From: Azolla caroliniana
Lineage: Eukaryota > Plantae > Polypodiophyta
NCBI GenBank assembly: GCA_043228905.1
Contig: JBHGNT010000013.1
Span: 17,298,001-17,362,000, forward strand
Length of the DNA: 64,000 bases
Direction of reading: 5' to 3'
Shown: positions 1 through 61,199 of the stretch, piece by piece
Position numbering within the stretch: the first letter of the stretch is position 1
Layout: each line of letters starts with the position of its first letter
Position numbers and translations under genes: made by a program
The notes under the pieces: model-generated
What the model saw: only the letters and a program-made list of their open reading frames with translations
Databases searched by the model: none
Told to the model about the DNA's origin: nothing

Positions 1-1117
1 CCACGATGGCTAATAACTCCTTGTCATGTATTTCGTAGTTGATTTCTGCGACATCGAATTTGCGCGAATGGAAAGCCACCGGATGCAACTCTTCTTTATC
101 TCCTTGTTGAGAAAGGATGCTACCGAGGGCGAAATCTGATGCGTCGACCTCCATGATGAATGGTTTGCTTGTATCCACATGAGCTAGAATCGATGCTGAT
201 GTAAAGGCTTTCTTAAGATGCCGAAAAGCCATATCTGCTTCTATGGACCAAAGAAATGCTTGGCCCTTCTTCGTAAGTTGTGTGAGAGGTAAAATAATCT
301 TCGAGTAATCCTGTATAAACTTACGGTAGAAGTTAGCAAAACCTAGAAAACATTGTACATCTCGTACCGACCGTGGAATTTGCCGCTCTAGTACAGTTTG
401 GATTTTAGCTGTATCCATGGCGATGCCCTTTGAGGAGATGACGTAGCCTAGAAATTCCACTTGCTTGCAGTCAAAGCTACATTTTTCTAGCTTGGCATAA
501 AGACCATTCTCGCGGAGTCGCTTTAGTACTAATAGTACATGAGAATCGTGCTCTTCCTGGGTCTTCGAATAAATCAATAGATCATCCAGATAAATGATCA
601 AACAGATATCCAAGAGGTCTCTGAATATATCATTTGCCATGTGTTGGAAGACTGCAGGTGCATTGGTTAGGCCAAACGGCATAACAGTATACTCGAAATG
701 CCCATACCGCGTGTGAAAGGCGGTCTTCCACTCATCCCCCGGTCGGATCTGCACGAGGTTATACGCTCCTCGTAGATCGATTTTAGTAAAAAACTTGGCA
801 CCATTAACTCGCTCTAAAAGACTTGATATAAGAGGAAGTGCATACCTATTCCGGATGGTGACTTTATTCAATCCGCGGTAATCAACGACAAGACGAAGTG
901 AGCCATCTTTCTTCTTGACAAAGAAGATGGGTGCACCGGCCGGAGATTTCGAATGACGGATGAACCCGCTTGCCAAGTTCTCCTCTATGTAGGCTCGAAG
1001 GACTTCTAACTCGGTGGGTGACAAGTTGTAAATTGGTCCCCATGGTGGCTCGGTTCCTGGTTGTAAATCGATGGGACAGTCATAGGGACGGTGATGAGGA
1101 AGGGTACCGGCTTTTAC
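1..1117 (-). pseudogene. Element A pol: reverse transcriptase and start of RNase H
   Basis: Reverse complement gives PPWGPIYNL, SPAGAPIFFVKKKDG, TKIDLRGAYNLV, MPFGLTNAPAVFQ, YLDD and HPVAFHSR. No ORF-track call because it is cut by the window edge and the insertion. Confidence 0.9.
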
Positions 1118-1399
1118 TGTCGAATACAAGTGTATAATGGACGTATTCACACTATCCCTTTAGGCCATTTGTGTAATTAGCATAAAGGGTAGTTGCCCTA
1201 AGTCGGTCACTATATATATTGACCTTGTAACCTTTTTGTAAGGTTGGGTGTTGTATTATTGTTTCTATTGAATAGAAAGTCTTTTGTGTCTCTCTCTCTC
1301 TCTCTCTCTGTGCAACGACCTACAATCTGTCATACGCAGGTATACAGAACAGAATCGAATGCTCCTTGATCTTCCGCATAGACGACCTCGTCCCCAACA
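1118..1399 (+). repeat. 5' LTR of intact Copia (282 bp)
   Basis: Direct repeat of 6292-6577; differs only in (TG)n(TC)n copy number. Confidence 0.97.
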
Positions 1400-2081
1400 A
1401 CTGGTATCAGAGCTAGGTTGTCGGCCGTCATCACCGCCTGCACAGCATTCGGTTCTTCACTTCATCACGGCCTGCACAGTATTCGCGTCATTCGAAGAAA
1501 GAAAGAAGAAGAAAAGAAACGAGGCTTGCATCTCATCGCGTTAGATCATCTTCGCTTGGAGTAAGCCAGCAGGTTGTACTCTGTTCCTTGTGATCGTAAC
1601 CGCTCGAGGTGAAATCCCCTTGTGCATCATTGACACGATCGTGCTCCATTCGGTTAAACGGCATCCGAAGAGGTCATCAAACGCTGCTCGCCGCTCATTG
1701 TAACCACTCGGTGCAGATCGGTCTCAAGACAACAACCCAAATTCGTGCTTCATCTGGCTGATCGACATTCGGGAGGATCAGTTGGATCCGTCTCTCTCGT
1801 TGCTGCAGTCAACCGAAGCAGAATCGGTCCAGATAATCGGTTTCAATAATCGGTATTCGGCATATATATCCGAAGTGAACCGGGCTCACTCCGACTCGGC
1901 AACATTCGGGAAGACCAGTTGGTTCTGTCCCTCAAGCTACCGGAGTCAATTCGAGCAAGTTCCGAAGCCGAACCGACTCGGGTTCAAATCCGACTAGAAC
2001 GATATCGGGTGAGCCAACCGACTGCACTCCAACAAGGTTCGTAGTCAACTCCGAACCGAGCTTCGTCAACCGAAACCGAAT

Positions 2082-5000
2082 TTGATGGCATCAACATCCG
2101 GCTCGTCAGAAATGAGTCTCCGAAAGTTCGATGGATCGAACTTCAACTTCTGGAAGGAACAAATGCAGGACTATCTCATAGTCAAGGGGCAAATCGATCC
2201 CATCGAAAATGAAGAACCTCCAGAAGGATACAAACCAATTGAGTGGCAGAAGCTGGACAGAATCGTCCGCGCCACGATTCGGATGCACCTATCGGAATCG
2301 GTATACTTTACGGTGCAATCGTGTACGACAACATTCGAACTGTGGAAAACACTGTCGGACACTTACGAAAAGAAGGTCGCCGCAACTAAGATGTTTCTGA
2401 TCCGGCGCCTCTACAACTTGCGGATGAAAGAATCCGATTCGGTTCAAGCACACCTCAATGAGTACGAAAGCATAAGCTCCCAAATCTCGTCACAGGGGAC
2501 GGCAATCGAGGATGAACTCAGAGCAATGATACTCATGAGTAGCCTTCCCTCATCATGGGAAACTTTCGTCACAACCGTGTGCAACGCGTCAACCACGGCT
2601 GTTAAGTACTCCGAAGTCACGAGCGCAATCCTGACCGAAGCAGCTCGGAGAAAGTCTTTCGCCAAAGACTCAACAGACGACGCTTATGTAGTACAAGGTT
2701 CGACAGACCGATCGAACATACGAGGAAGAGATTCCTCACGACCGCCGAACAATCAACGAAGACGGAGCCAGTCACGGGATAACCGAATCTGCAACTATTG
2801 CAAGAAACCCGGACACATCAAAGCCGACTGTCGCGCACTCAAGAACAAGAACAACAAGAAGAGTGGCCGGCATGAGGAGATCAATTACGTCAGCTTCTCA
2901 GCTGATGTGCTACCAGACGACCCGAATATACTATCAATCGAAAATCCAGTCGGATCAGAAGTCCTACTCACAACTGAAGAGTCGAGCACATGGCTCTTAG
3001 ATTCGGGCGCGTCATTTCACGTGACTCCTCATCGATCCCAATTTCGGCAATATACGATCCGTCACTCCGACTCAGTTCGAGTCGGCAACTCACAACACTG
3101 TGACATCATCGGAATCGGCACAATAGAGCTCAACCTTGCAGGTGGCTCTACACTTGTACTCCACAATGTCCGACATGTACCCGAGCTCTCAAGGCCATTG
3201 ATCTCAGTCGGACAACTAGATGAAGACGGCATTCGTGCCGGTTTTTCTTCGGGAGGGTGGACACTCCACAGGGGGAACCTCCTACTTGCTAGAGGACCCA
3301 AGATACACTCCCTGTATCCGTTACATGTTACGCTCAGAGAGGGTAACCTGTTTTTGGTGGATATTCCTGTGTCATCACTATGGCACAGAAGATTAGGACA
3401 CCTCAGCAAGGCCGGCATCATGCATCTATCTAGAGCCGGATACATCCCTAAACTCTCCTTCTCCGACCATCAATTCTGCGAGCATTGCCAGTATGGCAAA
3501 CAAGCAGCCGCATCACACCTGACATCAGCACCAAGAGAAACGAGACCTCTTGATTTGGTCCACTCGGACGTCTGTGGCCCAATGCCGCATCAGTCTCTCG
3601 GCGGTGCCTCTTACTTCGTCACTTTTATTGACGATTCGACTCGAAAGGTGTGGGCTTATCCGATTCGCACCAAAGATCGGGTCTTCTCGATCTTCACCGA
3701 TTGGCTCGCTATGGTAGAAAATCAAACCGACCGAAAGCTGAAATGCTTTCGGACAGACAATGGGGGAGAGTTCAAATCCGATGAATTCGTCAAATTCTGC
3801 CGACAACGCGGCATCCGACGTGAATTTACGGCACCACACAACCCGGAGCAAAACGGGATTGTCGAACGCATGAATCGCACAATCCAAGAACGGATAGTTT
3901 CCATGCTCCAACACTCCGGACTGTCGGATGGCTTCTGGGCAGAGGCTCTACTCACGGCAGTACACATAATCAATATGTCGCCAAGTAGACCTCTAGGACT
4001 TCAAATTCCTCAGGAACGATGGATCGGCAGTAAGCCGAATTACGACAAGCTGAGGATCTTCGGATGCGAGGCGTACGCCCTTATTCCGAAAGATGATCGC
4101 CGAAAACTTGCACCTCGGTCCAGGAAATGCATTTTCCTTGGATATGGATCCGACGGCGAAATGGGATACCGACTCTGGGATCCCGAACGCAGACAAATCG
4201 TCCGAAGTTCGGACGTTGTGTTCAACGAGTCGGCTATGAATCCATCAGTCGAAAAACCGATCGAAGTCCGAAGGGTAACATTTTCCGATGTGCCGACCCT
4301 TCAAGAAGGCCCCGCTCTCAACACACGGTCAGCTTCACGGGTAGCTGAACCCTACACTACCGACTCGGACAACTCCGACTCGGCACAGCAGAACAATCCG
4401 CTTTCGGACCATCCGACCACGATACCCGATGCGACCAGTCCAATCATACCTCGACGATCCGAGAGACTGTCGCAACCTCCGGAGAGGTACTCTCCTGGAA
4501 TTTTCCTCACCGACGCCGGCGAACCGACGTCTTACGAAGAAGCATCGACATCTGTCGATTCAGCCACCTGGCATCTGGCGATGGAGTCGGAAATGCACTC
4601 CATTCGGGCAAACAAGACTTGGGATCTGGTCGAATTACCTAAGAACCGACGTGCTCTTCCTTGCAAGTGGGTTTATCGACTAAAAGAGACGTCTGATTCG
4701 ACCACCCCAAAGTACAAGGCCAGATTAGTTGCGAAGGGCTTCCGACAAGAATATGGCGTCGACTTCGACGAGATTTTTTCACCAGTGGTGAAAATGACAA
4801 CCCTTCGTTTTCTACTCGGCGTAGTGGCAGCCGACAACTTGGAGCTGATTCAGCTAGATGTCAAAACAGCCTTCCTCCATGGTGATCTCGAGGAGGAAAT
4901 TTATATGGAGCAGCCAAAAGGCTTCGTGGCAACTGGCCAAGAACATTTAGTCTGCCGACTCAGGAAGAGTCTATACGGCCTCAAACAGGCACCACGACAA

Positions 5001-6098
5001 TGGTACAAGAAGTTCGACGACTTCATCCAATCGATCGGCTTCTCCAAAAGCGATGATGACCATTGTCTCTTCACCAACACAGCTCACGATGGATCACCCA
5101 TCTTCCTCATCATTTACGTGGACGACATGCTAATTTCTGGACGCCACGCGGGCGAACTTGCCGATCTCATTCAGCAACTGCGGTTGAAGTTTGCCATGAA
5201 GGACCTCGGTCCGGCACGACACATACTCGGCATGAAGATTAGTCGGCATCGCGATAAACGACATCTTTTTTTGTCTCAGACCGACTATATCCGACGTGTC
5301 TTGGAACGCTTCAACATGCAATCAGCCAAATCTGCTTCAACCCCGCTCCCAATGAATCTTCGGCTCTCTCAGCGAGACTGCCCGACATCCGGCCCGGAGG
5401 GGGAAGATATGAAGTCGGTACCGTATGCACCGGCAGTCGGCTCCCTTATGTACCTGATGGTCGCGACACGGCCTGATATTTCTCATGCCGTAGGAGTCGT
5501 TAGCAGATTTATGCACAATCCTGGCCGATCGCATTGGAACGCAGTCAAGCATGTGTTCAGATATCTGGCTGGCACAAAAGACCATGGCATTCTTTTCGGT
5601 CCGAACCGAACCTCAGGCGTAGTCGGTTACACCGACTCGGACTTCGCCGGCTGTATAGACAGTCGGAAATCAACAACCGGATACTGCTTCAAATTCGGCA
5701 ATGGAGCAATCTCGTGGAAGTCGAAACTTCAGGAGTGCACAGCGACCTCAACGACCGAAGCAGAATATGTAGCTGCGTCCGACGCAGCAAAAGAAGCTTT
5801 ATGGCTCGGTCGGCTGGCGCACACGTTTCGACAAGTCGACCATGACTCGGCTCCAGTTGTCTACAGCGACAGTCAAGGTGCTGTTGCCTTGTCGAAAAAT
5901 CCGGTTCACCACAACGCCTCCAAACATATCGACGTTCGATATCACTTCGTTCGGGACTGCGTCATTTCAGGGAAAATCGGTCTAGAGAAAATATCCACAA
6001 CCGACAATGTCGCAGATGGAATGACCAAGTGTCTTTCGGCAGACCGCTTTCGGTTTCTTCGGCATCAGATGGGTGTAACGACAAACCAGTCCGGTTAG
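2082..6098 (+). CDS. Copia Gag-Pol polyprotein (Gag, CCHC, protease, integrase, RT, RNase H), 1338 aa
   Basis: Uninterrupted ORF with CNYCKKPGHIKADC, WLLDSGASFH, LWHRRLGH..CEHC, RTDNGGEF, QLDVKTAFLHG, IYVDDML, YTDSD and KHIDVRYHF in Copia domain order. ATG start probably 2085. Confidence 0.97.
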   Translation: MMASTSGSSEMSLRKFDGSNFNFWKEQMQDYLIVKGQIDPIENEEPPEGYKPIEWQKLDRIVRATIRMHLSESVYFTVQSCTTTFELWKTLSDTYEKKVAATKMFLIRRLYNLRMKESDSVQAHLNEYESISSQISSQGTAIEDELRAMILMSSLPSSWETFVTTVCNASTTAVKYSEVTSAILTEAARRKSFAKDSTDDAYVVQGSTDRSNIRGRDSSRPPNNQRRRSQSRDNRICNYCKKPGHIKADCRALKNKNNKKSGRHEEINYVSFSADVLPDDPNILSIENPVGSEVLLTTEESSTWLLDSGASFHVTPHRSQFRQYTIRHSDSVRVGNSQHCDIIGIGTIELNLAGGSTLVLHNVRHVPELSRPLISVGQLDEDGIRAGFSSGGWTLHRGNLLLARGPKIHSLYPLHVTLREGNLFLVDIPVSSLWHRRLGHLSKAGIMHLSRAGYIPKLSFSDHQFCEHCQYGKQAAASHLTSAPRETRPLDLVHSDVCGPMPHQSLGGASYFVTFIDDSTRKVWAYPIRTKDRVFSIFTDWLAMVENQTDRKLKCFRTDNGGEFKSDEFVKFCRQRGIRREFTAPHNPEQNGIVERMNRTIQERIVSMLQHSGLSDGFWAEALLTAVHIINMSPSRPLGLQIPQERWIGSKPNYDKLRIFGCEAYALIPKDDRRKLAPRSRKCIFLGYGSDGEMGYRLWDPERRQIVRSSDVVFNESAMNPSVEKPIEVRRVTFSDVPTLQEGPALNTRSASRVAEPYTTDSDNSDSAQQNNPLSDHPTTIPDATSPIIPRRSERLSQPPERYSPGIFLTDAGEPTSYEEASTSVDSATWHLAMESEMHSIRANKTWDLVELPKNRRALPCKWVYRLKETSDSTTPKYKARLVAKGFRQEYGVDFDEIFSPVVKMTTLRFLLGVVAADNLELIQLDVKTAFLHGDLEEEIYMEQPKGFVATGQEHLVCRLRKSLYGLKQAPRQWYKKFDDFIQSIGFSKSDDDHCLFTNTAHDGSPIFLIIYVDDMLISGRHAGELADLIQQLRLKFAMKDLGPARHILGMKISRHRDKRHLFLSQTDYIRRVLERFNMQSAKSASTPLPMNLRLSQRDCPTSGPEGEDMKSVPYAPAVGSLMYLMVATRPDISHAVGVVSRFMHNPGRSHWNAVKHVFRYLAGTKDHGILFGPNRTSGVVGYTDSDFAGCIDSRKSTTGYCFKFGNGAISWKSKLQECTATSTTEAEYVAASDAAKEALWLGRLAHTFRQVDHDSAPVVYSDSQGAVALSKNPVHHNASKHIDVRYHFVRDCVISGKIGLEKISTTDNVADGMTKCLSADRFRFLRHQMGVTTNQSG

Positions 6099-6291
6099 AG
6101 CCGGACACAGAACAGGATGGTTCCCGACAACCGACATCAGTTCCTTAATGATCGGCTTCAACTGTTCCGACCCGACCAGTTCGGTCTTCTGCCTTCGGAC
6201 CCTGCCGACTCGAACAAAGCTGATATGTCCGAGAACCTAAGTCTATACCTGTAATCTTAGATAACCCATGTATACGCCCATTACGGGGGAG

Positions 6292-6577
6292 TGTCGAATA
6301 CAAGTGTATAATGGACGTATTCACACTATCCCTTTAGGCCATTTGTGTAATTAGCATAAAGGGTAGTTGCCCTAAGTCGGTCACTATATATATTGACCTT
6401 GTAACCTTTTTGTAAGGTTGGGTGTTGTATTATTGTTTCTATTGAATAGAAAGTCTTTTGTGTGTGTGTCTCTCTCTCTCTCTCTCTGTGCAACGACCTA
6501 CAATCTGTCATACGCAGGTATACAGAACAGAATCGAATGCTCCTTGATCTTCCGCATAGACGACCTCGTCCCCAACA
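6292..6577 (+). repeat. 3' LTR of intact Copia (286 bp)
   Basis: Direct repeat of 1118-1399, followed by TSD TTTAC. Confidence 0.97.
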
Positions 6578-6582
6578 TTTAC

Positions 6583-7224
6583 CTTGTCAAATACATCGGC
6601 ATAAGGATGATATTTTGCCGAAAGTTGTACTGAGGAGTCCTTCTTAATAGTGCTAGAAGGATGTACTGATATTGCAAATAGGAACATTGCCTCCTTGGGT
6701 CCTTCTTCGCGTAGTTGATGGAGTGAAATGGTTGAAACCCGGTGAGTTGATTCTTGGGGTGGTCGATATCAGACTTCTCTTGTTCTCCAATCTATGGCTG
6801 GATTATGAAATTCAAACCAAGGTAATCCTAGGACAATGGGATGCTCTGGACTACTAATTATATTAAATGATATTACACACACAAAACTACCTAGGACAAC
6901 TTTAATGGGTTCTGATTCTTCTACAATATTCCCGGAAGCAATGGGACGACCATTGATGACTACTACAGATGCGGGACAAGGAAGTTTTCTTAAGGATATC
7001 TGAGAAGCTTGGGCAAAATTTCGATCCATGAAACAAGAATTAGCTCCGTAATCTAAAAGTGCTAGGACGGGTACTGGGGGAGTACTTTTAGTACTAACAA
7101 TGTCTTGGGCTAGGAACACATTGCTAACTTGCTTGGAAGGAATGGAACCACTAATGGGCTGTACAGATCTAGGGCTGTAGTCCAACCAAACGACTCCTAT
7201 TTTGGCTGGACTCAATCGTTTAAC
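6583..7224 (-). pseudogene. Element A pol 5' part (aspartic protease), -1 frame relative to gag
   Basis: ORF 6769-7215 with ALLDYGANSCFMD and IVLGLPWFEFHNPAIDW; premature stop near 6769. Confidence 0.88.
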
Positions 7225-8369
7225 TCTTCATCTAATTGACTAAGGATTTCAAATTTATTTGAGATACTTGGGCTATTAGTACTATGAATACTATCAAACA
7301 CTCTATTAGTACTATTAATACTATCAGACACTCCTAAGGGAAGAATTGACTCGGGTTTAGTACAAGCTACAATTTGATTTACCTGTCTTCTTGGCCTATG
7401 GGGACAATTGATTGCGATATGCCCTGGTCCACCGCAATAAAGACATAATCGATTTGCACGTCGTTGTTGCTTTTCTTCTTCCGATAACGGGCCGCGTCGA
7501 CGCATGGTATCGATCTCCATCGGTGTCGAAGTATTTGCTTGAGGTATGTCTCGTGCAAACGGTTTAGCCGCGACTGCGGCGTAAGTGGGCTCCGGCCTAG
7601 CGCGTGGTATCTGTAATTGACGTTCCGAACGCCGTTCGAAAAGGCGGTTGTCACATCGGACCGCTCGACTGATTGCCTCCGTAAGAGACTTTGGTTCTTC
7701 GGGGAAGGTTAGAAGTAGATCTTTGACATTATTTCGCAAGCCATAGCGAAACTGCTCCATTAGTGCTTGATCATCCCAGGGTATGTTTGAAGCGAGTAGG
7801 CGGAAATCCGCCGCGTAGGCAGAGGCTGGATGATCGCCTTGACGCAATCGCCGGATCTTGTTGATCGCCGTCGTGATGCTATCGGTGTCTCCAAAGCAGG
7901 CTTTGAACTCACTAATAAAATCTTCAAAGTTATTAAGCAAGGGCGATTGTTTTTCTAGAAGCGGAGCGAACCATGCTAAGGCTGAGCCGCTAAGCAACGT
8001 GCCTATTAAGCCGACTCGGGATGCATCAGTGGGGTATCGGGAAGGATGCATTTGGAGGACTAATTGTACCTGATTAAGGAATCCCCTGAATTGCGATAGC
8101 GTTCCATCAAATTTCACAGGAAGTCCAATCTTCGGCTCTTTATGAAATCCTTGGGGACTTGATCCTTGTTGTTGCAATGCCGCTTCGAGTTGTTGCACTC
8201 GTAATGCTAACTCCCCATGCTAGTGCTGTGTTTGTTGCTTTTCTAGAGCGATTTGTTGCAGATCCCCTATCAGCCGTTGGTTTTCTTGTTCCAAGGCAAC
8301 AAAATTTTCTTTTAAGCATTGTAGCTCGGAGAAAATGGATTGATATTCTTGGGCGCTAACAGTAGCCAT
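7212..8369 (-). pseudogene. Element A gag (one premature stop near 8220)
   Basis: ATG at 8369 (MATVSAQEY..) is in frame with ORF 7212-8198. CLYCGGPGHIAINC knuckle; collinear with gag 43004-44131. Confidence 0.9.
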
Positions 8370-8680
8370 AGTATAGGGAAAAGGGTAGGAGGACAAATTG
8401 GTTCAAACTGTCAGGAATAGTACTAAGCAGAGATGGAATTAGTACTAAAGAAGAGCAGTACTATTAGTACTAAGAGGACGGGACTACGTAAGACTCCCGA
8501 GAGAGAGAGAGAGAGAGAAGCGAAAAGAGAGATAGCGAGGATGAGAGAGAGAGAGAGATGATGATAACAACCAATATATTATGTGAAGGATAAGTACAAA
8601 ATGGCTAAGAGGCTTAAGACTGGTGTCGAACCAATTTGGTTCAAAACAATGCCTTGTCCCTCCTTTTATAGTGTTTTTAG

Positions 8681-8723
8681 GAATAATCCTGAAGCTTCTA
8701 GAATGTTCTAGAGAGATCTGGAA
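8681..8723. promoter_or_regulatory. Heat-shock-element array in element A U3
   Basis: GAAgcTTCtaGAAtgTTC (8691-8708) with imperfect in-phase units on both sides, just upstream of the TATA box. Confidence 0.7.
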
Positions 8724-8784
8724 TATACATCAATTTTCTATGATAAAGCATAAATGAAAATAATATCCTACAAATTACAATTCA

Positions 8785-8842
8785 TAGTCTAATGGTAAGA
8801 GCTCGACCCATGTAGCATAAGGTCATGGGTTCGAGTCTTGCC
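8785..8842 (+). promoter_or_regulatory. tRNA-like Pol III A-box/B-box cassette in element A U3, antisense to the element
   Basis: TAGTCTAATGG (8785-8795) and GGTTCGAGTC (8828-8837) at tRNA spacing, with AGGTC before the T-arm. Confidence 0.65.
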
Positions 8843-8853
8843 ATATCATGACA

Positions 8854-41993: not shown

Positions 41994-42411
41994 TTATGAT
42001 ATGTTCCCCCTTTTTTCAGTATTCAGTAAAGCTAGGAAGGTCATTACTAAGGTCTATGAATGTAATGACACCAACAACACAGAAACATTGGACTAACTGG
42101 GGTGTTTCAACGTTGCAATTGAAAACATATTGGAGATGGATATGGTCTTTCAAGGGGCCTTCTAAATTTATTCTTTTTAGATGGCTATTAGTGCATGCTG
42201 CATTACCAGTTGGCCAAACGTTAAAAGGGAATGTCGCACAGAATCTCAGGCAATGTGGATTATGCTATGCAACGCCGGAGACTACTAAGCATGCCCTCTG
42301 GTCTTGTCCCTTGGCTCAACAAGTATGGAATAAAGTTCTTTCTTTATTCCTAACAATCAATGTTGGTTGCTTGTTCTCATGGGTGTCTTGAAGACATCAT
42401 GACATTCATCT

Positions 42412-42478
42412 TGGCGAACCAGGAATCGAACCCATAACCTCTTGGTTTACATATTGTACTTTAACCATTGTAATAACA
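42412..42478 (-). promoter_or_regulatory. tRNA-like A-box/B-box cassette in element B U3 (second copy 47772-47838)
   Basis: Minus strand TATTACAATGGTTA..AGAGGTTATGGGTTCGATTCC TGGTTCGCCA; B box at 42432-42422. Confidence 0.65.
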
Positions 42479-42529
42479 TATGTGAGATGTAATCATAATA
42501 ATTATATGTTTAGTTATTACGAGATATTT

Positions 42530-42632
42530 AGAACATTCTAGATTATTCTAGAATGTTCTTGAATATTTCATGATTATATTTATTATTATTATTATTCATA
42601 AATATCTAAAATATTCTAGAACATTCTAGAAT
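42530..42632. promoter_or_regulatory. Heat-shock-element arrays in element B U3 (second copy 47890-47992)
   Basis: GAAcaTTCtaGATtaTTCtaGAAtgTTCttGAA (42531-42563) and TTCtaGAAcaTTCtaGAA (42614-42631). Confidence 0.75.
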
Positions 42633-42920
42633 ACTCCATAAGGGCCTATAAATAAGAGTCCATACACTCATCACAACACATTCGGTTCAACACCAGTCTT
42701 TAGCCCTTAGCCTACTCCTTGTAATCTTCTTTCTCATAATATAATCTCATTCCCATTTCTTATCTCTCACTTATACTTTTCTCTCTCTCGCACTCTCTCC
42801 CTTTTTCACTCTCTTTTGCTATCACTATCGCTATCTCTACCGCTCTCGCCATCTCTATCGTTATCGTTATCTCTATCGCCATCGCTCTCTCTCTGCTTCC
42901 TACTCAAGAGTCACGACAGT

Positions 42921-42931
42921 TTGAACCGAAT
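42921..42931 (+). other. Self-priming primer-binding site TTGAACCGAAT, complementary to 42680-42690
   Basis: Exact 11-nt reverse complement of ATTCGGTTCAA, which starts 33 nt after the TATA box. Confidence 0.85.
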
Positions 42932-43003
42932 ATTTCTTTTCCCTTTCTCCAATAACCCTAGCAAGCTTTCTTCTTTATCCTTCTTTCTTTTTCCCCCGCG
43001 GTT

Positions 43004-44131
43004 ATGGAGTCGGTCAGCAAGCAAGAGTATATGCGTGTCCTTTCGGAGCTCGATATGCTCACCACTAAGTTTGTGGCATTAGAGCAAGAAAATCAAAGGC
43101 TACTCGGGGATCTTCAACAAGTCAGTACTGAGAAAGCTCATCAATATGAGGAGTTATCACAACGGGTTCATCAACTTGAGGCTACTATATTAACATTACG
43201 AGAACAAGCGGCGGGGGTTCAAAACTCCCCAAGGGAACCAAAGATTAGCCTCCCTGCCAAGTTTGATGGTACCAGATCTCTCTTTCGAGGTTTCCTGAAT
43301 CAAGTTCGTTTGGTGATTCAGTTACATCCCAATCGGTATCCAACTGATGCTGCCCGTGTGGGATTAATAGGAACCTTGCTAAGCGGTACAGCGTTAGCAT
43401 GGTTTGCACCACTTCTTGAGAAGAAATCACCATTACTGGAGGATTTCGAGGCATTCGTTAAGGAGTTTCAAGCTAGTTTTGGAGATACGGATAGCACTAG
43501 GACTGCAATAAACAAGATTCGAAGACTCCGACAAGGAGATCGTCCCGCTTCAGCTTATGCCGCAGATTTCCGTCTCTTGGCATGCGACATCCCTTGGGAT
43601 GAGGCAGCCTTAATGGATCAATTCCGTCAGGGTTTGCGTAACGATGTCAAAGATCTTCTTCTTACTTTCCATGAAGATCCAAAGTCTCTTACTGAAGCTA
43701 TTAGCCGAGCTGTGCGATGTGATAATCGCCTATTTGAGCGACGTTCTGAACGTCAACAAATGTTACGCCGCCAACCGGAACAGACATACGCTTCTATAGT
43801 CGCCACACCGCCACAAGGTTCTAGACCCGTTACGAGGGATGGTCCCACTCCGATGGAAATAGAGTCGACACAACGTCGAGGGCCCTTATCAGATGCTGAG
43901 AAACAACGACGTCGGGCGCATCGCCTATGCCTCTACTGTGGTGGTCCGGGACATATAGCTGTGAATTGTCCACATAAACCCAGGCGTCAAGTTTACCAAG
44001 TAAGTGCACATGACAACCCTACATCAAGTTCTACTATCACTTCTAATAACTTAAGTACTAAGCCTAATAGCCCATGCCATGAGAATAGATTTGATGTCTT
44101 GAGCCAATTAGAGGATGTGTTAAACGAATAA
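43004..44131 (+). CDS. Element B Gag, 375 aa
   Basis: Intact ORF with coiled-coil N-terminus, P.KFDG, LRQG..SAY..F, PTPMEI and CLYCGGPGHIAVNC. Confidence 0.93.
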   Translation: MESVSKQEYMRVLSELDMLTTKFVALEQENQRLLGDLQQVSTEKAHQYEELSQRVHQLEATILTLREQAAGVQNSPREPKISLPAKFDGTRSLFRGFLNQVRLVIQLHPNRYPTDAARVGLIGTLLSGTALAWFAPLLEKKSPLLEDFEAFVKEFQASFGDTDSTRTAINKIRRLRQGDRPASAYAADFRLLACDIPWDEAALMDQFRQGLRNDVKDLLLTFHEDPKSLTEAISRAVRCDNRLFERRSERQQMLRRQPEQTYASIVATPPQGSRPVTRDGPTPMEIESTQRRGPLSDAEKQRRRAHRLCLYCGGPGHIAVNCPHKPRRQVYQVSAHDNPTSSSTITSNNLSTKPNSPCHENRFDVLSQLEDVLNE

Positions 44132-44170
44132 GTCCGGCCAAAATAGGAGCCATTTGGTTGGACCATCCTA
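44119..44170 (+). other. Predicted -1 ribosomal frameshift signal (slippery heptamer plus pseudoknot)
   Basis: G_TTA_AAC at 44119-44125, 6-nt spacer, stem 44132-44142/44153-44163, loop TAGGA pairs with TCCTA 44166-44170. Confidence 0.8.
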
Positions 44171-47100
44171 GTTATGTAGAGTCAGTACCTAGTTGTGGTT
44201 CCATTTCATCAAATCAAGTTAGTAGAGTTTTTTCTGCACAAGTCGAGCTTAGCACATCTACAGGTCATCGCGCCCTAGCCTCTGCCCTCCTAGATTCCGG
44301 AGCCAATTCTTGTTTCATGGATCGCGAGTTTGCATTGACTCAAAACATCATCTTGAAAAAACTCCCAAACCCAGTAGCTGTAGGAGTCATCGATGGTCGC
44401 CCTATAGCATCAGGAGATATAGTCGAAGAGTCTGAACCAATTCGTGTAGTCCTAGGTAATTTGGCTAGTGTCATCTCATTTAACATCATTAGTAGTCCGG
44501 AGCACTCTCTAGTTCTTGGTCTTCCTTGGTTTGAGTTACATAACCCAACCATTGATTGGAGAAAAAGAACTATTGAAGAGGTCACCGTACAATCCAAGTC
44601 TCTTGAAGCTCCAGGATCCCCCACAATTTCAACAATCTCTATACATCAATTACGAGAGGATGGAAGAAAGGAAGACATGATGGTATTTGCGGTTTTAGCA
44701 ACTCCCTCATCTAGCTCACAAGAATTGGGGGTCCAACTACCAAAAAAGTACATAGAATTCTCCGATGTGTTCGATAAGGTGAAGGCTAATAGACTACCAG
44801 AGCATCGACCATATGATTGCCCAATTGATTTGCAGCCAGGAAAAGAGCCTCCATGGGGACCAATTTATAATCTTTCGCCCACGGAGTTAGAGGTTCTTCG
44901 AGAATATATCAATGAGAACTTGGCAAATGGTTTTATCCAACATTCAAAATCTCCTGCTGGTGCACCCATCTTTTTCGTTAAGAAGAAAGATGGTACGCTT
45001 CGTATGGTCGTGGATTATCGAGGCTTGAATAAAGTGACCGTTAGAAACCGATATGCTCTCCCATTGATCTCAAGCCTTCTAGAACGCCTCAGTGAAGCAA
45101 AGTATTTCACGAAGTTAGATCTTCGAGGTGCCTACAACCTTGTTCGAATTCGTCCTGGGGATGAATGGAAGACGGCGTTCCGCACTTGCTATGGTCATTT
45201 TGAGTACACAGTGATGCCTTTTGGCCTCACGAATGCACCAGCAGTCTTCCAACATATGGCGAATGATATTTTTCGAGACTTCCTCGATATCTTCATCATT
45301 GTTTACCTGGATGATATCTTGATCTACTCAAAAACTCAAGAAGAACATGATATACATGTTCGCCAAGTTTTGCAACGGCTACGAGAGTATGGTCTCTATG
45401 CAAAATTGGAGAAGTGTAGTTTCGACCAATGTCAAGTGGAGTTTTTGGGGTACATAGTCTCTTCAAATGGCATCTCTATGGATCCATCAAAGGTTCAAAC
45501 AATTTTGGATTGGCAAACACCACAGTCCGTGCGAGATGTGCAATGTTTTTTGGGGTTCGCAAACTTTTATCGCAAGTTCATCAAAGATTATTCAAAAATT
45601 GTGTTGCCCCTCACTCAACTGACGCACAAGAATCGACCATTTGTATGGAGTATAGATGCGAACTCTGCATTTGAGGGTTTAAAGCAAGCATTTACATCCG
45701 CACCAATCTTAATCCATGTCGATCCAATGAGGCGCTTTATACTTGAAGCTGATGCATCGGATTTCGCACTCGGAAGTGTACTATCCCAAATTGGTGACGA
45801 TGGTGAACTGCACCCGGTGGCTTTTCACTCACGAAAATTTGAAGCCGCAGAAATCAACTATGAGATTCACGACAAAGAGCTTCTTGCCATTGTGGATTCT
45901 TTTCAACAATGGCGTCATTTTCTGGAGGGTTCTTCTCAGCAGATTATTGTCTACAATGATCATAAAAATCTAACATACTTTCAAAGTGCTCGAGTCTTGA
46001 ATCGACGACAAGCTCGTTGGGCGCAGTTCTTAACTCGTTTCGATTTTGTAATTCTATATCGCCCTGGGATGCAACAAGGAAAAGCAGATGCTTTATCTAG
46101 ACGTTCGTATATGGAACTTCAACCTGGAGAGGCCGCATTTGAAAGCCAAAAGCAAATCCTCTTAGGTCCTGATCGTCTACGAATAATGGCAATGCATACC
46201 ATCAACACACCGGGAGATTCAAGGCTTCTTGATTCCATTCGTGAGCAGATTGCGACTGATGCGTTCGCCCAAGAGGTTTTGAGCCATATTATCCCAAATC
46301 GTGCATCTAGCTCCCAAACTCAAAATCCTCGTCTAGACTACACCCAGTTTAGTTGGCATGATGGGTTACTTTTTCGACAAACTCTCTTGTATGTGCCTGA
46401 CGGTCCTTCTCGACTCAAAGTCATGCAACAATGTCATGACACACCAATGGCGGGACACTTCGGCATCCACAAGACTTTTGAGTTGATTTCTCGCCGATAT
46501 TGGTGGCCACGGCTTCGCCATTTTGTTACGGATTATGTTCGTAGCTGTGATACATGTTGCCGATCAAAAAAGCCTTGACATCATCCATATGGCTTATTAC
46601 AGCCAATGCCTATTCCGGAGAGCCCATGGAAATCTATTTCCTTGGACTTTATTACGGATCTTCCACCTTCCAAGGGATTTGATTCGATTCTCACGGTTGT
46701 CGATCGTTTTACGAAGATGGCACATTTCCTTCCATGCACAAAGACCATTACTAGTCAAGAGACAGCTGATTTACTCATGCGGGAGGTGTTTCGCCATCAT
46801 GGTCTTCCGGATGATATTATCAGTGATCGGGGTCCCCAATTCATCTCGAAATTTTGGCGGCACATGTTCAAACTCTTACATACTTCTTGTAAACTCTCTT
46901 CCGGCTACCATCCAGAGACTAATGGGTAGAGTGAGCGCACCAACCAAACAGTCGAGCAATATCTACGTTGTTTTGTCAACTATCAACAAGATGATTGGGT
47001 GGATTTACTACCTTTGGCAGAATTTGCTTATAACAACTCCGAGCATTCTTCTACTGGATATTCCCCATTTTTTGCAAACATTGGGTACCATCCTCGTTGG

Positions 47101-47751
47101 ACGATGCTTGAACATCCTGAACTCCCAAAAAACCCAGCTGCTGAAGATCGGCTCACTCGACTCCAAGAAGTTCAGGATATGCTTTTGCATCATTTATGTG
47201 AAGCCCAAAACACTCAAAAGAAGATTGCTGACCGTCATCGGCGTGATTCATCGACTACATTTCAAGTAGGCGATCGTGTATGGCTCTTACAAGGTAGCAT
47301 TAAAACGACCCGACCTTGCTACAAATTGGATTATCAACGTTTTGGCCCATATGTCATAAGTGGTAAGATCAATGATGTGACATTTCGTCTTGATCTTCCT
47401 CCTCATATGCGTCTTCACCCGGTCTTCCATGTTTCACTTTTGGAGCCCTACACAACGAGCTCTATTCCGGGTCGTGTTACACCTCCCCCACCTCCAATTG
47501 ACGTTTCCAATGGCTCTGAATATGAGGTTGCCGCTATCCTCGACTCCAAGATCATTCGCAACAAACTATACTACTTGGTTGATTGGTTAGGCTATACACC
47601 TAATGATCGAACATGGGAGCCTGCCGAACATCTTGCCAATGCCTCCGACATGGTTGTTGCATTTCACAACCAATATCCTCATAAACCAAGTCTGAACTCT
47701 TTTCTTCCGACTCGTGCAACTCGTCATCGAAAAGGGGGGATAATGTCATGA
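44119..47751 (+). pseudogene. Element B Pol (protease, RT, RNase H, integrase, chromodomain) with two nonsense mutations
   Basis: LLDSGANS, YLDDIL, EADASDFA, ISLDFI, SDRGPQF, GPY and EYEVAAILDS..YLVDWLGY..TWEP. In-frame stops at 46576-46578 and 46927-46929. Confidence 0.93.
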
Positions 47752-48278
47752 AGACATCATGACATTCATCTTGGCGAACCAGGAATCGAACCCATAACCT
47801 CTTGGTTTACATATTGTACTTTAACCATTGTAATAACATATGTGAGATGTAATCATAATAATTATATGTTTAGTTATTACGAGATATTTAGAACATTCTA
47901 GATTATTCTAGAATGTTCTTGAATATTTCATGATTATATTTATTATTATTATTATTCATAAATATCTAAAATATTCTAGAACATTCTAGAATACTCCATA
48001 AGGGCCTATAAATAAGAGTCCATACACTCATCACAACTCATTCGGTTCAACACCAGTCTTTAGCCCTTAGCCTACTCCTTGTAATCTTCTTTCTCATAAT
48101 ATAATCTCATTCCCATTTCTTATCTCTCACTTATACTTTTCTCTCTCTCGCACTCTCTCCCTTTTTCACTCTCTTTTGCTATCACTATCGCTATCTCTAC
48201 CGCTCTCGCCATCTCTATCGTTATCGTTATCTCTATCGCCATCGCTCTCTCTCTGCTTCCTACTCAAGAGTCACGACA
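47744..48278 (+). repeat. 3' LTR of element B
   Basis: Direct repeat of 42384-42918. Confidence 0.97.
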
Positions 48279-49205
48279 ATGGGGAGTAGTGGTGTGGGGA
48301 GTATTACACTCCAGCCTGATGTTGTATGAGGCAAATGATATGCAAGAGGCCATGATGGCATATAATAGAAGATTGATATCAGTTAGTTCGTTTCAGCAAC
48401 CTCGAAAGCAAATGCGATCTATCGAGATCTGGAAAACTGTGACTACGATAACATTATGGGTATTATGGAAATGTAGATGCAATTGACTTTACTATGCCGC
48501 AAAGCTTGGCATTCCAGAGGTATTGCTTGAGATATGGGAAACATTGTTGACAGTAGTTCGTGGGTAGTATGATAACATGACTGGTTCTCCAGAAAATATT
48601 CATAAAAGAAGGATGAAGCTTCTTCACTTATGGAGGAAGGTGCCTCTCTTTGTAATGACAAACCAAAGACCTCAATTGAATTATCATCTTCCATGGACCT
48701 TTTCTTGATATAAAACCAACATGTTAATGTATCGTTTAAGGCTCAACAACCCTATATAAGTTGTTTTTGTATGTACAAGTTTAGGTGTACATACATTACG
48801 TTGTAAACCTACGGGCAGATAACTTTCACTTGTACTTTCTTGATGTTTTAATACCATTGAAGAAAATCTTTCAGGGAAAAAAAATAAAATGCACTCAACA
48901 AACCCGGGAGTGAAGATAAAGAGGCACGGGCAAGCTATGAGGCATACACAACAAGGAAGCAGGAGAGTGCGGGCGGATGGGCAAGGTTGGCCAAAGAGTG
49001 CCATCCGGACGGACAAAAGTTGGCCGAACGAGACGAGTGCCATTGCCGGTTGGCCGGCCTGCCGGTCTTTGGACAGGTCTTATGGTGTTGTATTCAGAGA
49101 GGTGTCCATCCATCATATTCTCTGTTTTCCTTTACATATTTCCAAGGAGATTGTGAAGGAGGAAGAACAGAGAAGAGGGTGGAAGGAAGGACCCAGAGCA
49201 GAGTG

Positions 49206-58735: not shown

Positions 58736-60769
58736 TCAGTAGGTCTCAGAGCTGAAACTACTGGATGTGATGGAAACCACAGTGGATGCTTGGTAAGAAT
58801 TGGACACTTCCTTAGGAGGAACACTATAAGGCGAAGATATAGATGGCGGCAACAATATGGGTGGCGCCTCCCCCGAGAGCACATGGAGGACATTTCGCAT
58901 TGATGGACGCATGTCTGGCACCGCATAGCAACATGTGAGCCCCAATTCCAACACAGTAATTACCATGGCTTTATCTTCTTCACTCTCTATTGACAAGCTT
59001 GGGTCCACAGCCTCAATTAAGCGTTGATCTTTATGAAACCTCCAAAGCCACTCCATCAATGCACATTCCTCTTTTGCGATATAATCACTCACCTTCTTTC
59101 CAGTAACAACTTCCAATACTAGTACTCCGAAGCTAAAAACATCAGTTTTATCTGTCGATTTGCGCGTATAGAAGGACTCTGGTGCCATGTAGCCCCATGT
59201 TCCAGCAACGTTGGTTGTACCTGGTGCCACATCATGCCCATATAGACGAGCTAGTCCGAAATCACCAAGACGAGCATTCATATGAGCATCCAACATCACA
59301 TTGCTGGCTTTGATATCACGATGAACGATTTTCTTCTCACATTCTTCATGGAGGTAATTTATGGCAGCAGATACCCCTTTCAGGATATGAAGTCGCATCG
59401 GCCATGTCAGTTTCCCTTGGTTGTTTCTTTGGAATAGGAAATGGTCTAAGCTTCCATTAGGCATAAGCTCATAGACTAGCATAAAACCCTTCTCTTGGCA
59501 CCAACCAAGCAAAGGGGCCAAATTCCGATGCCGGAGTTGTCCAATCGTTGTCACTTCCGACACAAATTCTTTTACTCCTTGCTTCGATCCCTTGGAGATC
59601 CTCTTCACAGCAACATCCACAAGGGTGGAAGGAATCTTGCCTTTGTAAACGGACCCAAATCCACCGGTCCCTAAAAGGTTCTTCGCATGGAAGTTCTGTG
59701 TCGCTTTGCTTAGTTCACGGTAACTGTAACGCTGTGGCAAGTTTTGATCCAATGACAACCCTAGTTGCTCATCTGTGGCGGCTTCAAATGGATGGTTACG
59801 ACACCTTGAATACATAAAAGCAGATGCTATTCCTAATGATAACAAGACCAAGGCACCTATTACTACCCCTACTATGAGGGCGATATGTCTCCAATTCTTT
59901 GTCGAGCCAGAAGGCATTGTGATGGGTGTCGAGTTTCCTTCATTGCTAAAACTCCAAGAATAGACATTATACAAGACGTCCTCCAAAGGCCCAGTGGCTG
60001 CAGTGAACCCGATGTACATGTTTTGGTTGAGCACCGATGACAAGTTAAGTGAAGTGTTAGAAATCAAAGCATATTGGGGTCGTGTTTGGCCTATAGTTCG
60101 ACTAACTGAGACCTCAAGACGATTAGAGACAGAATCAAAATCAATCCATGCTTGGATACTAGATCCTTTTAGTTGGATGGAATATCCATCAGCAGCGGAG
60201 TTTATCGTCGATGAATTGCTAGTACGAAAAGCAGACGAAACAGAGAGCCACGAGAAGATACTATTAACATCAATTCCAACATGGTTTCCATCGATATCAT
60301 TGAACTCTGGGTTCTTATAAGTATCAAACTCCACGCCGAGTGTTTGGGCGGTAGCATTTGTGGCATCAGTGGTGTTGGTATTGGTATCAGAGCTATTGAA
60401 GAGGCCCAGATAGCCTTGTGAGGAGCCATTAACTGGTTCCAGGGAAGGGGCGATCACAAACGCCATTCCATCGGCTTGATCTTCTGATCCTGGGGTTATC
60501 TTTAAGATGAATTGTGTGCTAAAAGAGACTGGCTTCCCAGAGTCGTCGAGGAACCGGATCGGCGAAGTGTAGAAGCATCGGCCCATGCCTTGGATCGCAT
60601 CAGTCGCAGTGAGCTGGAGGGCAGAGCCCACCACGGAGGCGCCTTGTAAGCATCGGATCCCTGCTGAAGTAGCCTCTTGGAATCCGATGTATGTGAAGTT
60701 TGTAGCACCATGGGGGTCTGGAAAACAGAGGAGCAGTGAGAAGAGAAGGAGAAGAAGGAGAGAACGCAT
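58736..60769 (-). CDS. L-type lectin receptor-like Ser/Thr kinase (LecRK), intronless, 677 aa
   Basis: Signal peptide, legume-lectin motifs (SFSTQF, ADGMAF, VEFDT, NHVGIDVN, MYIGFTAATG, YSWSF), transmembrane helix, kinase GTGGFGSVYKG, VAVK, HRDIKASN, DFG, APE. Confidence 0.96.
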   Translation of the reverse strand: MRSLLLLLLFSLLLCFPDPHGATNFTYIGFQEATSAGIRCLQGASVVGSALQLTATDAIQGMGRCFYTSPIRFLDDSGKPVSFSTQFILKITPGSEDQADGMAFVIAPSLEPVNGSSQGYLGLFNSSDTNTNTTDATNATAQTLGVEFDTYKNPEFNDIDGNHVGIDVNSIFSWLSVSSAFRTSNSSTINSAADGYSIQLKGSSIQAWIDFDSVSNRLEVSVSRTIGQTRPQYALISNTSLNLSSVLNQNMYIGFTAATGPLEDVLYNVYSWSFSNEGNSTPITMPSGSTKNWRHIALIVGVVIGALVLLSLGIASAFMYSRCRNHPFEAATDEQLGLSLDQNLPQRYSYRELSKATQNFHAKNLLGTGGFGSVYKGKIPSTLVDVAVKRISKGSKQGVKEFVSEVTTIGQLRHRNLAPLLGWCQEKGFMLVYELMPNGSLDHFLFQRNNQGKLTWPMRLHILKGVSAAINYLHEECEKKIVHRDIKASNVMLDAHMNARLGDFGLARLYGHDVAPGTTNVAGTWGYMAPESFYTRKSTDKTDVFSFGVLVLEVVTGKKVSDYIAKEECALMEWLWRFHKDQRLIEAVDPSLSIESEEDKAMVITVLELGLTCCYAVPDMRPSMRNVLHVLSGEAPPILLPPSISSPYSVPPKEVSNSYQASTVVSITSSSFSSETY

Positions 60770-61199
60770 GGCTTCTTCACTGGTGCTTTCACGGCCTGTA
60801 GAAAATTAGGGTTTTGTTTCGTTTTTATTTTTCTTACAGGGGAGAATCAGGGGCTTATTTCAATAGTGGGAAAGTAGAGATGTCTTCCTAGAGAGGAGAT
60901 GGAGGGTATTGTCATGGTGGGCAGATTAGGAAAGGAAAATCTTGGATTAGGGATGTGCAGAGGAGGAGAAGGAAGAGAAGGGAAGGAGATGGGGGAAGAA
61001 GAATTCTGAGAGACAAAAGCTTAACGGAATGAAGGAAGCAGACAAAGTCAAATTTACTTATTTAGGTATATATTCATTCCGCCATAGCATAATTATGTAC
61101 ATACATCTCTGCGCTATCTTATCTCTTACTTTCAAATTTTGACCTCTTTCATCTGTAACATCTCTCTGTTTCTCTTTATGCAGTCATCTGTGACATCTC

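What the first reader, a model, noticed from the sequence alone, without database searches (positions are those of the whole stretch)
42384..44170. Candidate system: heat-responsive, tRNA-independent chromovirus with a built-in Pol III cassette
Seen in both elements A and B in the same order and spacing despite LTR divergence: outward tRNA-like A/B boxes, HSE array, TATA, self-primer at +33, complementary PBS, and a frameshift pseudoknot. Each part has precedent separately (Tf1 self-priming, ONSEN HSEs, 5S-derived LTRs in Cassandra, viral -1 frameshifting). I do not recall the combination being described in an autonomous plant Gypsy family and could not check. Inference: TFIIIC-bound boxes may insulate a stress-inducible promoter from the heterochromatin that the chromodomain targets.
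Basis: partly seen in the sequence, partly recalled or inferred. Interest (0 to 1): 0.85.

Follow-up and report, generated by a model that had tools for sequence, protein, structure and literature searches.

The report
Plant retrotransposon LTRs carry tRNA promoter
A plant jumping gene of a known self-priming type carries, at the outer edge of its terminal repeats, a backwards tRNA-gene promoter kept at fixed spacing across six diverged lineages, next to heat-shock elements; it likely binds the tRNA transcription factor and may keep the element's predicted heat-switched promoter open, but no function has been measured.

Summary
Element A (42384-48278, LTRs 533/535 identical, TSD ATGGG) and the split element B carry, in order: antisense tRNA-type A/B boxes 43 nt apart, perfect four-unit heat-shock elements, TATA, an 11-13 nt self-primer at +33 pairing with the PBS, and a -1 frameshift site with a stem. 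Most of this is the known Tcn1 chromovirus: self-priming (83% of 1500 elements) and overlapping gag/pol are published, and SM-Tcn1 shows the same primer geometry and frameshift stem. Heat elements are common but not universal (11 of 13 U3 regions). The new part is the tRNA-derived box pair. It is present in all 13 U3 regions that cover it, from six LTR lineages (RT 80-99% to A), at 43-44 nt like real tRNAs, with 85 of 90 universal positions kept while the cloverleaf is lost. Selection on the boxes is clear in A's branch and not detectable in B's. SM-Tcn1 lacks it. Such promoters were described only for non-autonomous TRIMs (Helenus). TFIIIC binding, heat induction and insulation are untested. 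Verdict: new variant of a known kind, not a new system.

The parts
42379..42383 (+). Target-site duplication ATGGG, left copy (right copy 48279-48283)
42384..42918 (+). 5' LTR of element A, 535 bp, TG...CA; 2 differences from the 3' LTR
42422..42432 (-). B box GGTTCGATTCC, facing out of the element
   Evidence: perfect consensus match, 3 in the whole window
42465..42475 (-). A box TATTACAATGG, 43 nt upstream of the B box on the antisense strand
42545..42564 (.). Heat-shock element, four contiguous nGAAn/nTTCn units (distal)
42613..42632 (.). Heat-shock element, four contiguous units (proximal)
42647..42653 (+). TATA box
   Evidence: 35-38 nt before the primer core in all 12 U3 regions that reach it
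42680..42690 (+). Self-primer, predicted 5' end of the genomic RNA
42921..42931 (+). Primer-binding site complementary to the self-primer
   Evidence: covaries with the primer in relatives
43004..44131 (+). gag (Ty3 capsid, zinc knuckle)
44119..44170 (+). -1 frameshift signal: GTTAAAC, 6-nt spacer, 11-bp stem, loop that could pair with the downstream TCCTA
44095..47751 (+). pol frame (protease, RT, RNase H, integrase), with in-frame stops at 46576 and 46927
47521..47670 (+). Chromodomain with the three aromatic-cage residues (group I type)
47729..47743 (+). Polypurine tract
   Evidence: sequence
47744..48278 (+). 3' LTR of element A with the same modules
8409..8853 (-). 5' LTR of element B: A box 8785, B box 8828 (both read on +), HSE 8709-8690, TATA 8670, self-primer from 8637
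1..8408 (-). Body of element B: PBS from 8406, gag with a stop at 8222, frameshift site 7224, pol split by a copia element (1118-6577, TSD TTTAC), running off the window

Best explanation
A and B are self-priming Tcn1-type chromoviruses whose lineage carries a backwards tRNA-derived A/B-box pair at the outer end of U3, likely captured once from a SINE or tRNA gene and likely kept because it binds TFIIIC. Predicted cycle: heat-shock factor on the four-unit HSEs fires the TATA box; the RNA starts about 33 nt downstream, so its first 11-13 bases fold onto the PBS and prime reverse transcription without a tRNA; a -1 frameshift makes Gag-Pol; the group I chromodomain steers insertion to H3K9-methylated chromatin. 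The Pol III boxes cannot make the genomic RNA (wrong direction, 5.9 kb). I infer that TFIIIC, probably with TFIIIB landing inward on the AT-rich stretch between the A box and the HSEs, keeps the promoter nucleosome-poor and slows silencing from the flank. Shown: the motifs, spacing, conservation pattern and primer/PBS covariation. From established biology: self-priming, frameshifting, chromodomain targeting, tDNA barriers. Inferred and untested: TFIIIC binding, heat induction, barrier effect.
For: Box pair seen by alignment in 13 of 13 U3 regions covering it; 12 of 13 pass the strict pattern, with shuffles 0-4 of 500. Spacing is 43-44 nt against 42-44 in 25 of 27 real tRNAs. Six lineage representatives keep 85 of 90 universal tRNA positions; mean pairwise identity is 0.62 (A box), 0.69 (variable loop and T-stem), 0.77 (B box) against 0.34 (anticodon-arm equivalent), 0.37 (after B) and 0.33 (TATA to primer), with 0.28 expected from composition. 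A vs L028: 0 of 22 box and 8 of 28 inter-box columns differ (p 0.006); A vs L034: 1 of 22 and 13 of 28 (p 0.001). A tRNA profile scores 10 of 13 U3s above all 200 shuffles, always antisense. Primer and PBS pair over 11-13 bp in 10 of 10 distinct elements with both visible, in four primer variants. Precedent: tDNA barrier needing TFIIIC and Pol III, independent of orientation (PMC2040200 abstract); Tf2 needs the upstream start, opened by heat through loss of a U3 nucleosome, to include its self-primer (PMC5341516 passages); 4P HREs go with the strongest heat induction (PMC5059998 passages).
Against: No excess conservation of boxes within the B family (7 of 22 vs 10 of 28 variable columns, p 1) or between L040 and L041 (8 of 22 vs 10 of 28, p 1); six lineages together give p 0.05. 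Core B-box bases are lost in some: C56 in L045, C61 in L040 and L041, T54 in L009. The alignments were anchored on the boxes, which inflates their identity. 3 of 13 U3s got no tRNA-profile hit. SM-Tcn1 amplified to hundreds of copies without boxes or HSEs, so neither is required. L045 has boxes and no HSE, so the boxes are not tied to a heat promoter. The relatives are assembled contigs from an unknown number of host species.
Confidence: 0.5

Rival explanations
1. Passenger relic: a SINE or tRNA fragment landed in an ancestral LTR and is only decaying; the rest is an ordinary heat-inducible Tcn1 element.
For: No box-over-spacer conservation in the B family or in L040 vs L041. Core B-box losses. 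Host contigs hold other degenerate B-box-type repeats at E 0.02-0.16 (L018, L046, L035, L030). Kojima notes that 'not a few' Repbase LTRs hold tRNA-like pieces.
Against: Spacing is held at 43-44 nt in 13 of 13 U3s while the inter-box sequence is near random between lineages. Boxes are unchanged in A vs L028 and almost so vs L034.
Confidence: 0.25
2. The cassette is a transcribed Pol III unit making a short outward RNA; at the 3' LTR it would read antisense across the U3 start and polypurine tract and could tune plus-strand priming or feed small-RNA silencing.
For: Both boxes at tRNA spacing, outward-facing; Cassandra is transcribed from its LTR Pol III promoter (PMC10886601).
Against: No conserved terminator: an A4 run (T4 on the antisense strand) lies within 10 nt of the LTR start in 2 of the 9 distinct relative loci listed, and in A by reading. 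No conserved RNA fold.
Confidence: 0.12
3. The boxes act in integration geography: TFIIIC/TFIIIB on the LTR clusters copies in the nucleus or is a landing pad for Pol III-targeting elements, as tRNA genes are for Ty3 and Tj1.
For: Unchecked notes from other genomes report such pile-ups at LTR-borne boxes (e1-10420520, e1-10420559).
Against: No insertion just upstream of the A box in any of the 13 U3s here; they were chosen for being readable, so this is weak.
Confidence: 0.08
4. The conserved letters are a different cis-signal near the U3 tip (integrase, RT or a Pol II factor) that resembles tRNA boxes by chance.
For: The motif lies within 100 nt of the LTR end; in the B family part of it forms an inverted repeat.
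Against: Distance from the LTR end varies from 21 to 50 nt while A-B spacing is fixed; it matches D-loop, variable-loop and T-loop positions together.
Confidence: 0.05

Closest known systems
Tcn1 clade of chromoviruses (Tf1/sushi group; Neumann et al. 2019, PMC6317226; SM-Tcn1, Novikova et al. 2010, PMC2864245)
   Same: 5-bp TSD, about 6 kb, self-priming, overlapping gag/pol frames, aromatic-cage chromodomain. SM-Tcn1, read by eye, has a 12-nt self-primer 33 nt after TATA, the same short motif after the primer and at the LTR-PBS junction, and a frameshift stem with the same loop.
   Different: SM-Tcn1's U3 shows no tRNA boxes and no HSE array. I found no description of such boxes for Tcn1 elements.
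Helenus / TRIMp3 (Kojima 2024, PMC10886601) and Cassandra
   Same: tRNA-derived sequence in the LTR, conserved around boxes A and B, not a working tRNA; one Helenus family is in Selaginella.
   Different: Those are non-coding TRIMs of 0.3-1.3 kb that use tRNA primers and are thought to be transcribed by Pol III. Here the element encodes Gag-Pol, primes itself, has a Pol II promoter, and the boxes face outward. Kojima argued that autonomous partners are unlikely to share such LTR sequence.
ONSEN/COPIA78 and other heat-responsive COPIA families (PMC5059998); RLG2 of Physcomitrium (PMC7466625)
   Same: Four contiguous nGAAn units in the LTR (4P type). RLG2 is a moss Gypsy induced by heat.
   Different: ONSEN is Ty1/copia and tRNA-primed. 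Heat induction is measured there and only predicted here. The chromodomain Gypsy RLG1 of Physcomitrium is repressed by heat.
Tf1/Tf2 of Schizosaccharomyces pombe (PMC5341516)
   Same: Self-primer at the RNA 5' end; replication depends on the start site, and heat shifts Tf2 to the productive start.
   Different: There the switch is a remodeller-placed U3 nucleosome; the passages I read mention no HSE array or Pol III box in the LTR.

Membership tests
Tcn1 chromovirus clade | RT-RNase H groups with Tf1/sushi-type fungal and vertebrate elements, apart from seed-plant and algal chromoviruses | tested here: met
   99-row tree: A and B lie in a 79-row group (SH-aLRT 100) with fungal and vertebrate elements; seed-plant and green-algal rows are outside
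Tcn1 chromovirus clade | Clusters with named Tcn1 references (Tcn1, PpatensLTR, SM-Tcn1) | tested here: inconclusive
   No named reference could be put in the tree; SM-Tcn1 compared by eye only, showing long identical RT runs and the same cis-signals
Tcn1 chromovirus clade | Self-priming PBS, no tRNA PBS | tested here: met
   11-13 bp pairing with covariation in 10 of 10 elements
Tcn1 chromovirus clade | Group I chromodomain with aromatic cage | tested here: met
   Pfam Chromo E 3.7e-12; Y, W, Y cage residues
Tcn1 chromovirus clade | gag and pol in overlapping frames; 5-bp TSD | tested here: met
Tcn1 chromovirus clade | Host is a non-seed plant | tested here: inconclusive
   The window's lectin receptor kinase points to a streptophyte; the lineage was not resolved
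Helenus / TRIMp3 | tRNA-derived A and B boxes in the LTR | tested here: met
Helenus / TRIMp3 | Non-coding TRIM under about 1.3 kb | tested here: not met
   5.9 kb with gag and pol
Helenus / TRIMp3 | tRNA-complementary PBS | tested here: not met
   PBS pairs with the element's own LTR
Helenus / TRIMp3 | Genomic RNA made by Pol III | not testable with these tools
   Unlikely: boxes face outward and a TATA sits 33 nt before the primer
Heat-activated LTR retrotransposons (ONSEN type) | 3P or 4P heat-responsive element in U3 | tested here: met
   Two four-unit arrays in A, one in B
Heat-activated LTR retrotransposons (ONSEN type) | Transcript rise or extrachromosomal DNA after heat | not testable with these tools
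   No usable RNA run

The most novel reading that the evidence does not exclude
An autonomous plant retrotransposon lineage has domesticated a tRNA-gene promoter as a portable chromatin barrier: every new copy carries its own TFIIIC-bound boundary at the LTR edge, keeping a heat-gated, start-site-critical self-priming promoter usable inside the heterochromatin its chromodomain targets, and seeds thousands of Pol III boundary sites through the host genome.
Probability: 0.3. Interest if true: 0.8.

Novelty: new variant of a known kind. Interest (0 to 1): 0.5.

Why it matters
Chromoviruses insert into silent chromatin yet must be transcribed from an exact start, because a self-priming RNA with the wrong 5' end cannot replicate. 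A conserved Pol III box pair beside the promoter gives a concrete, mutable candidate for how that is done, testable with one LTR-reporter in a moss with gene targeting. It extends small-RNA-gene promoters in LTRs from miniature non-coding elements to a protein-coding plant lineage. If TFIIIC binds, the family spreads boundary-type sites at high copy number, which bears on how non-seed-plant genomes interleave gene-rich and TE-rich patches. If the boxes are inert, the finding is an ordinary, probably heat-inducible Tcn1 family with a SINE scar.

Tried and rejected
Intact tRNA or known RNA family in the LTR: none. Second, sense-strand B box over the self-primer (GGTTCRACACC at 42684 and 8632): not kept in SM-Tcn1 or L081, and I had used it as an anchor, so I treat it as probably coincidental. 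Conserved Pol III terminator at the polypurine tract: not conserved. tRNA-fragment priming at the PBS: rejected because the variable PBS bases follow the element's own LTR. Expression: no RNA holder listed; of three runs guessed as RNA, one looks like DNA, one gave 7 short pieces and one none; no conclusion drawn. Whole-genome analysis: no assembly is held. Viral contigs: no gag relatives; the 6 promoter-pattern hits were not followed as LTRs and served only to reach phage tRNAs. The frameshift pattern found 0 in prokaryote genomes. The cassette profile found no hit in 80 more distant loci, but few hold a whole LTR, so this is weak. The conservation figures used a wrong anchor for A and were replaced. 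The U3 identity matrix uses a lenient measure and is not used as evidence. Earlier-finding searches by sequence and the first word search were blank.

Full report
Anatomy. Element A spans 42384-48278 with 535-bp LTRs differing at 2 positions and an ATGGG target-site duplication, so it is a young insertion. It encodes gag, then protease, RT, RNase H, integrase and a chromodomain in the -1 frame; this copy has two in-frame stops in integrase. Element B lies on the minus strand, 5' LTR 8853-8409, with a stop in gag and a copia element inserted in pol; its RT-RNase H is 80% identical to A's. The only non-TE gene identified, a lectin receptor kinase, indicates a streptophyte plant. No genome is held.

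Observation. Both LTRs carry the modules in the stated order: antisense A and B boxes 43 nt apart near the outer end of U3, four-unit HSE arrays (two in A, one in B), TATA, and a self-primer 33 nt after TATA that pairs with the sequence just after the LTR. Shuffle controls give 0 and 2 of 500 for the box pair and 0 of 500 for the HSEs. The gag-pol junction has GTTAAAC and an 11-bp stem in both. In four DNA runs laid at 80% likeness, summed contig depth over the frameshift bin is several times that of its neighbours, and the commonest variant in the stem keeps the pair. Consensus patterns for the boxes, HSE and TATA are recalled, not taken from a call.

Family. A metagenome scan with the frameshift motif gave 40 loci from 39 contigs, a selection independent of the LTR modules. 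Eleven contigs hold the start of an LTR long enough to test (L009, L012, L017, L023, L028, L031, L034, L037, L040, L041, L045); with A and B this gives 13 U3 regions in six lineages. Left out: L015 (U3 cut by the contig end; no HSE in the 209 nt seen), L007 (outer U3 replaced by other sequence, no cassette), L011 (9 nt of LTR), L019 (rearranged), and the rest without an LTR start. The RT tree puts A, B and all nine relative loci included in one 23-row clade (SH-aLRT 97) inside a group with fungal and vertebrate Tf1/sushi-type elements (100), apart from seed-plant and algal rows (quick method, no named Tcn1 reference). Near-identical DNA is held by runs under several coded species labels.

What is already known. 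Neumann et al. (passages and Additional file 5 read) list 1500 Tcn1 elements from moss and club-moss: 83% self-priming, overlapping gag/pol prevailing, 5-bp TSD, aromatic-cage chromodomain in 95%. SM-Tcn1 (section and sequence file read) shows by eye a perfect 12-nt self-primer 33 nt after TATA, which its authors did not detect, and a frameshift stem with the same loop as A's. The sister-clade locus L081 (RT 71%) has HSE-like arrays, TATA and a self-primer at +32. Among the 39 contigs, 29 of 30 with enough sequence keep the 3' arm of stem 1 and 24 of 30 keep the CCTA for stem 2 (the 5' side was fixed by the search pattern). So tRNA independence and frameshifting are clade traits. That -1 frameshifting is common in this group is also recalled knowledge.

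Heat elements. Perfect three-unit HSEs occur in 11 of 13 U3s; L045 has none and the partial L040 has only one-mismatch matches. Four-unit elements go with the strongest heat induction in Brassicaceae COPIAs (PMC5059998 passages), and one moss Gypsy, RLG2, is heat-induced while RLG1 is repressed (PMC7466625 passages). Heat induction of A and B is therefore likely but unmeasured.

The tRNA-type cassette. All 13 U3s align with both boxes 43-44 nt apart; 25 of 27 phage tRNAs give 42-44. Twelve pass the strict pattern and 10 outscore all 200 shuffles against a tRNA profile, always antisense. Six representatives keep 85 of 90 universal positions while the anticodon-arm equivalent is near random and the T-stem pairs at 1 to 4 of 5: a promoter kept, an RNA lost, as Kojima describes for Helenus (PMC10886601, parts 1-4 of 6 and passages read). 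Against: the boxes are no better kept than the spacer within the B family or between L040 and L041, the six-lineage test is borderline (p 0.05), and four sequences lack a core B-box base. In A's branch the contrast is strong (p 0.006 and 0.001). SM-Tcn1 lacks the cassette, so it is a lineage addition. Weak B-box-type repeats elsewhere in the host contigs fit capture from a SINE.

Mechanism. A self-priming RNA must start exactly at its primer; in Tf2 that start is gated by a U3 nucleosome and opened by heat (PMC5341516 passages). The fixed TATA-to-primer distance and adjacent HSEs fit the same logic. The outward boxes cannot transcribe the genome. The reading I favour (0.5) is TFIIIC binding that keeps the promoter open or blocks silencing from the flank, as a fission-yeast tDNA does regardless of orientation (PMC2040200 abstract). 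Rivals: inert relic (0.25), short antisense Pol III RNA (0.12), landing pad (0.08), unrelated signal (0.05).

Novelty. Five searches found no description of a conserved Pol III box pair in an autonomous plant LTR retrotransposon; the library lacks most subscription papers and Repbase, Kojima remarks that many Repbase LTRs hold tRNA-like pieces, and the unreadable REXdb files may contain these LTRs. Unchecked scan notes describe similar cassettes in fungal chromovirus LTRs, one judged a passenger; they are leads, not support. Verdict: new variant of a known kind, interest 0.5.

Noticed in passing
window 8648-8626 (minus) and L009, L012, L017, L023, L031, L034, L037, L015, L045: A PBS-like inverted copy lies just upstream of the self-primer, forming a hairpin across the predicted start site (-6 to -15 kcal/mol). 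It is absent in A, L028 and L041. It could mask the 3'-LTR copy of the primer, or disable RNAs that start too far upstream.
   Followed up: partly
SM-Tcn1 sequence file of PMC2864245, LTR and the bases after it: The published element described as lacking any PBS has, by eye, a perfect 12-nt self-primer/PBS pair and a frameshift stem like A's.
   Followed up: yes
L019 2200-2950 (oriented): Three copies of the B-type LTR tip with the box cassette sit inside a palindromic repeat, in both orientations, apart from the rest of the LTR.
   Followed up: partly
window 8800-8836: In the B family the sequence between the boxes is an inverted copy of the B-box arm and folds as a hairpin (z -2.2).
   Followed up: partly
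L018 721-742 and 861-882 (oriented); L046 166-183; L035; L030: Degenerate tRNA-like or SINE-like repeats outside these LTRs, weakly matching the cassette profile; possible source family.
   Followed up: no
window 1981-1991: A perfect B-box match in the 5' leader of the copia element 1118-6577; no matching A box was sought further.
   Followed up: no
L031, L037, L041, L045: Contigs read LTR-internal-LTR-internal, either tandem elements sharing an LTR or assembly wrap-around.
   Followed up: no
window 58736-60805 (-): Intronless L-type lectin receptor kinase gene.
   Followed up: partly
L081-L156: 76 loci with Gypsy pol sequence in prokaryote genome assemblies, most likely eukaryotic contamination.
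   Followed up: partly
P0346: A close outgroup Pol (RT 77% to A) carries a dUTPase domain (PF00692).
   Followed up: no
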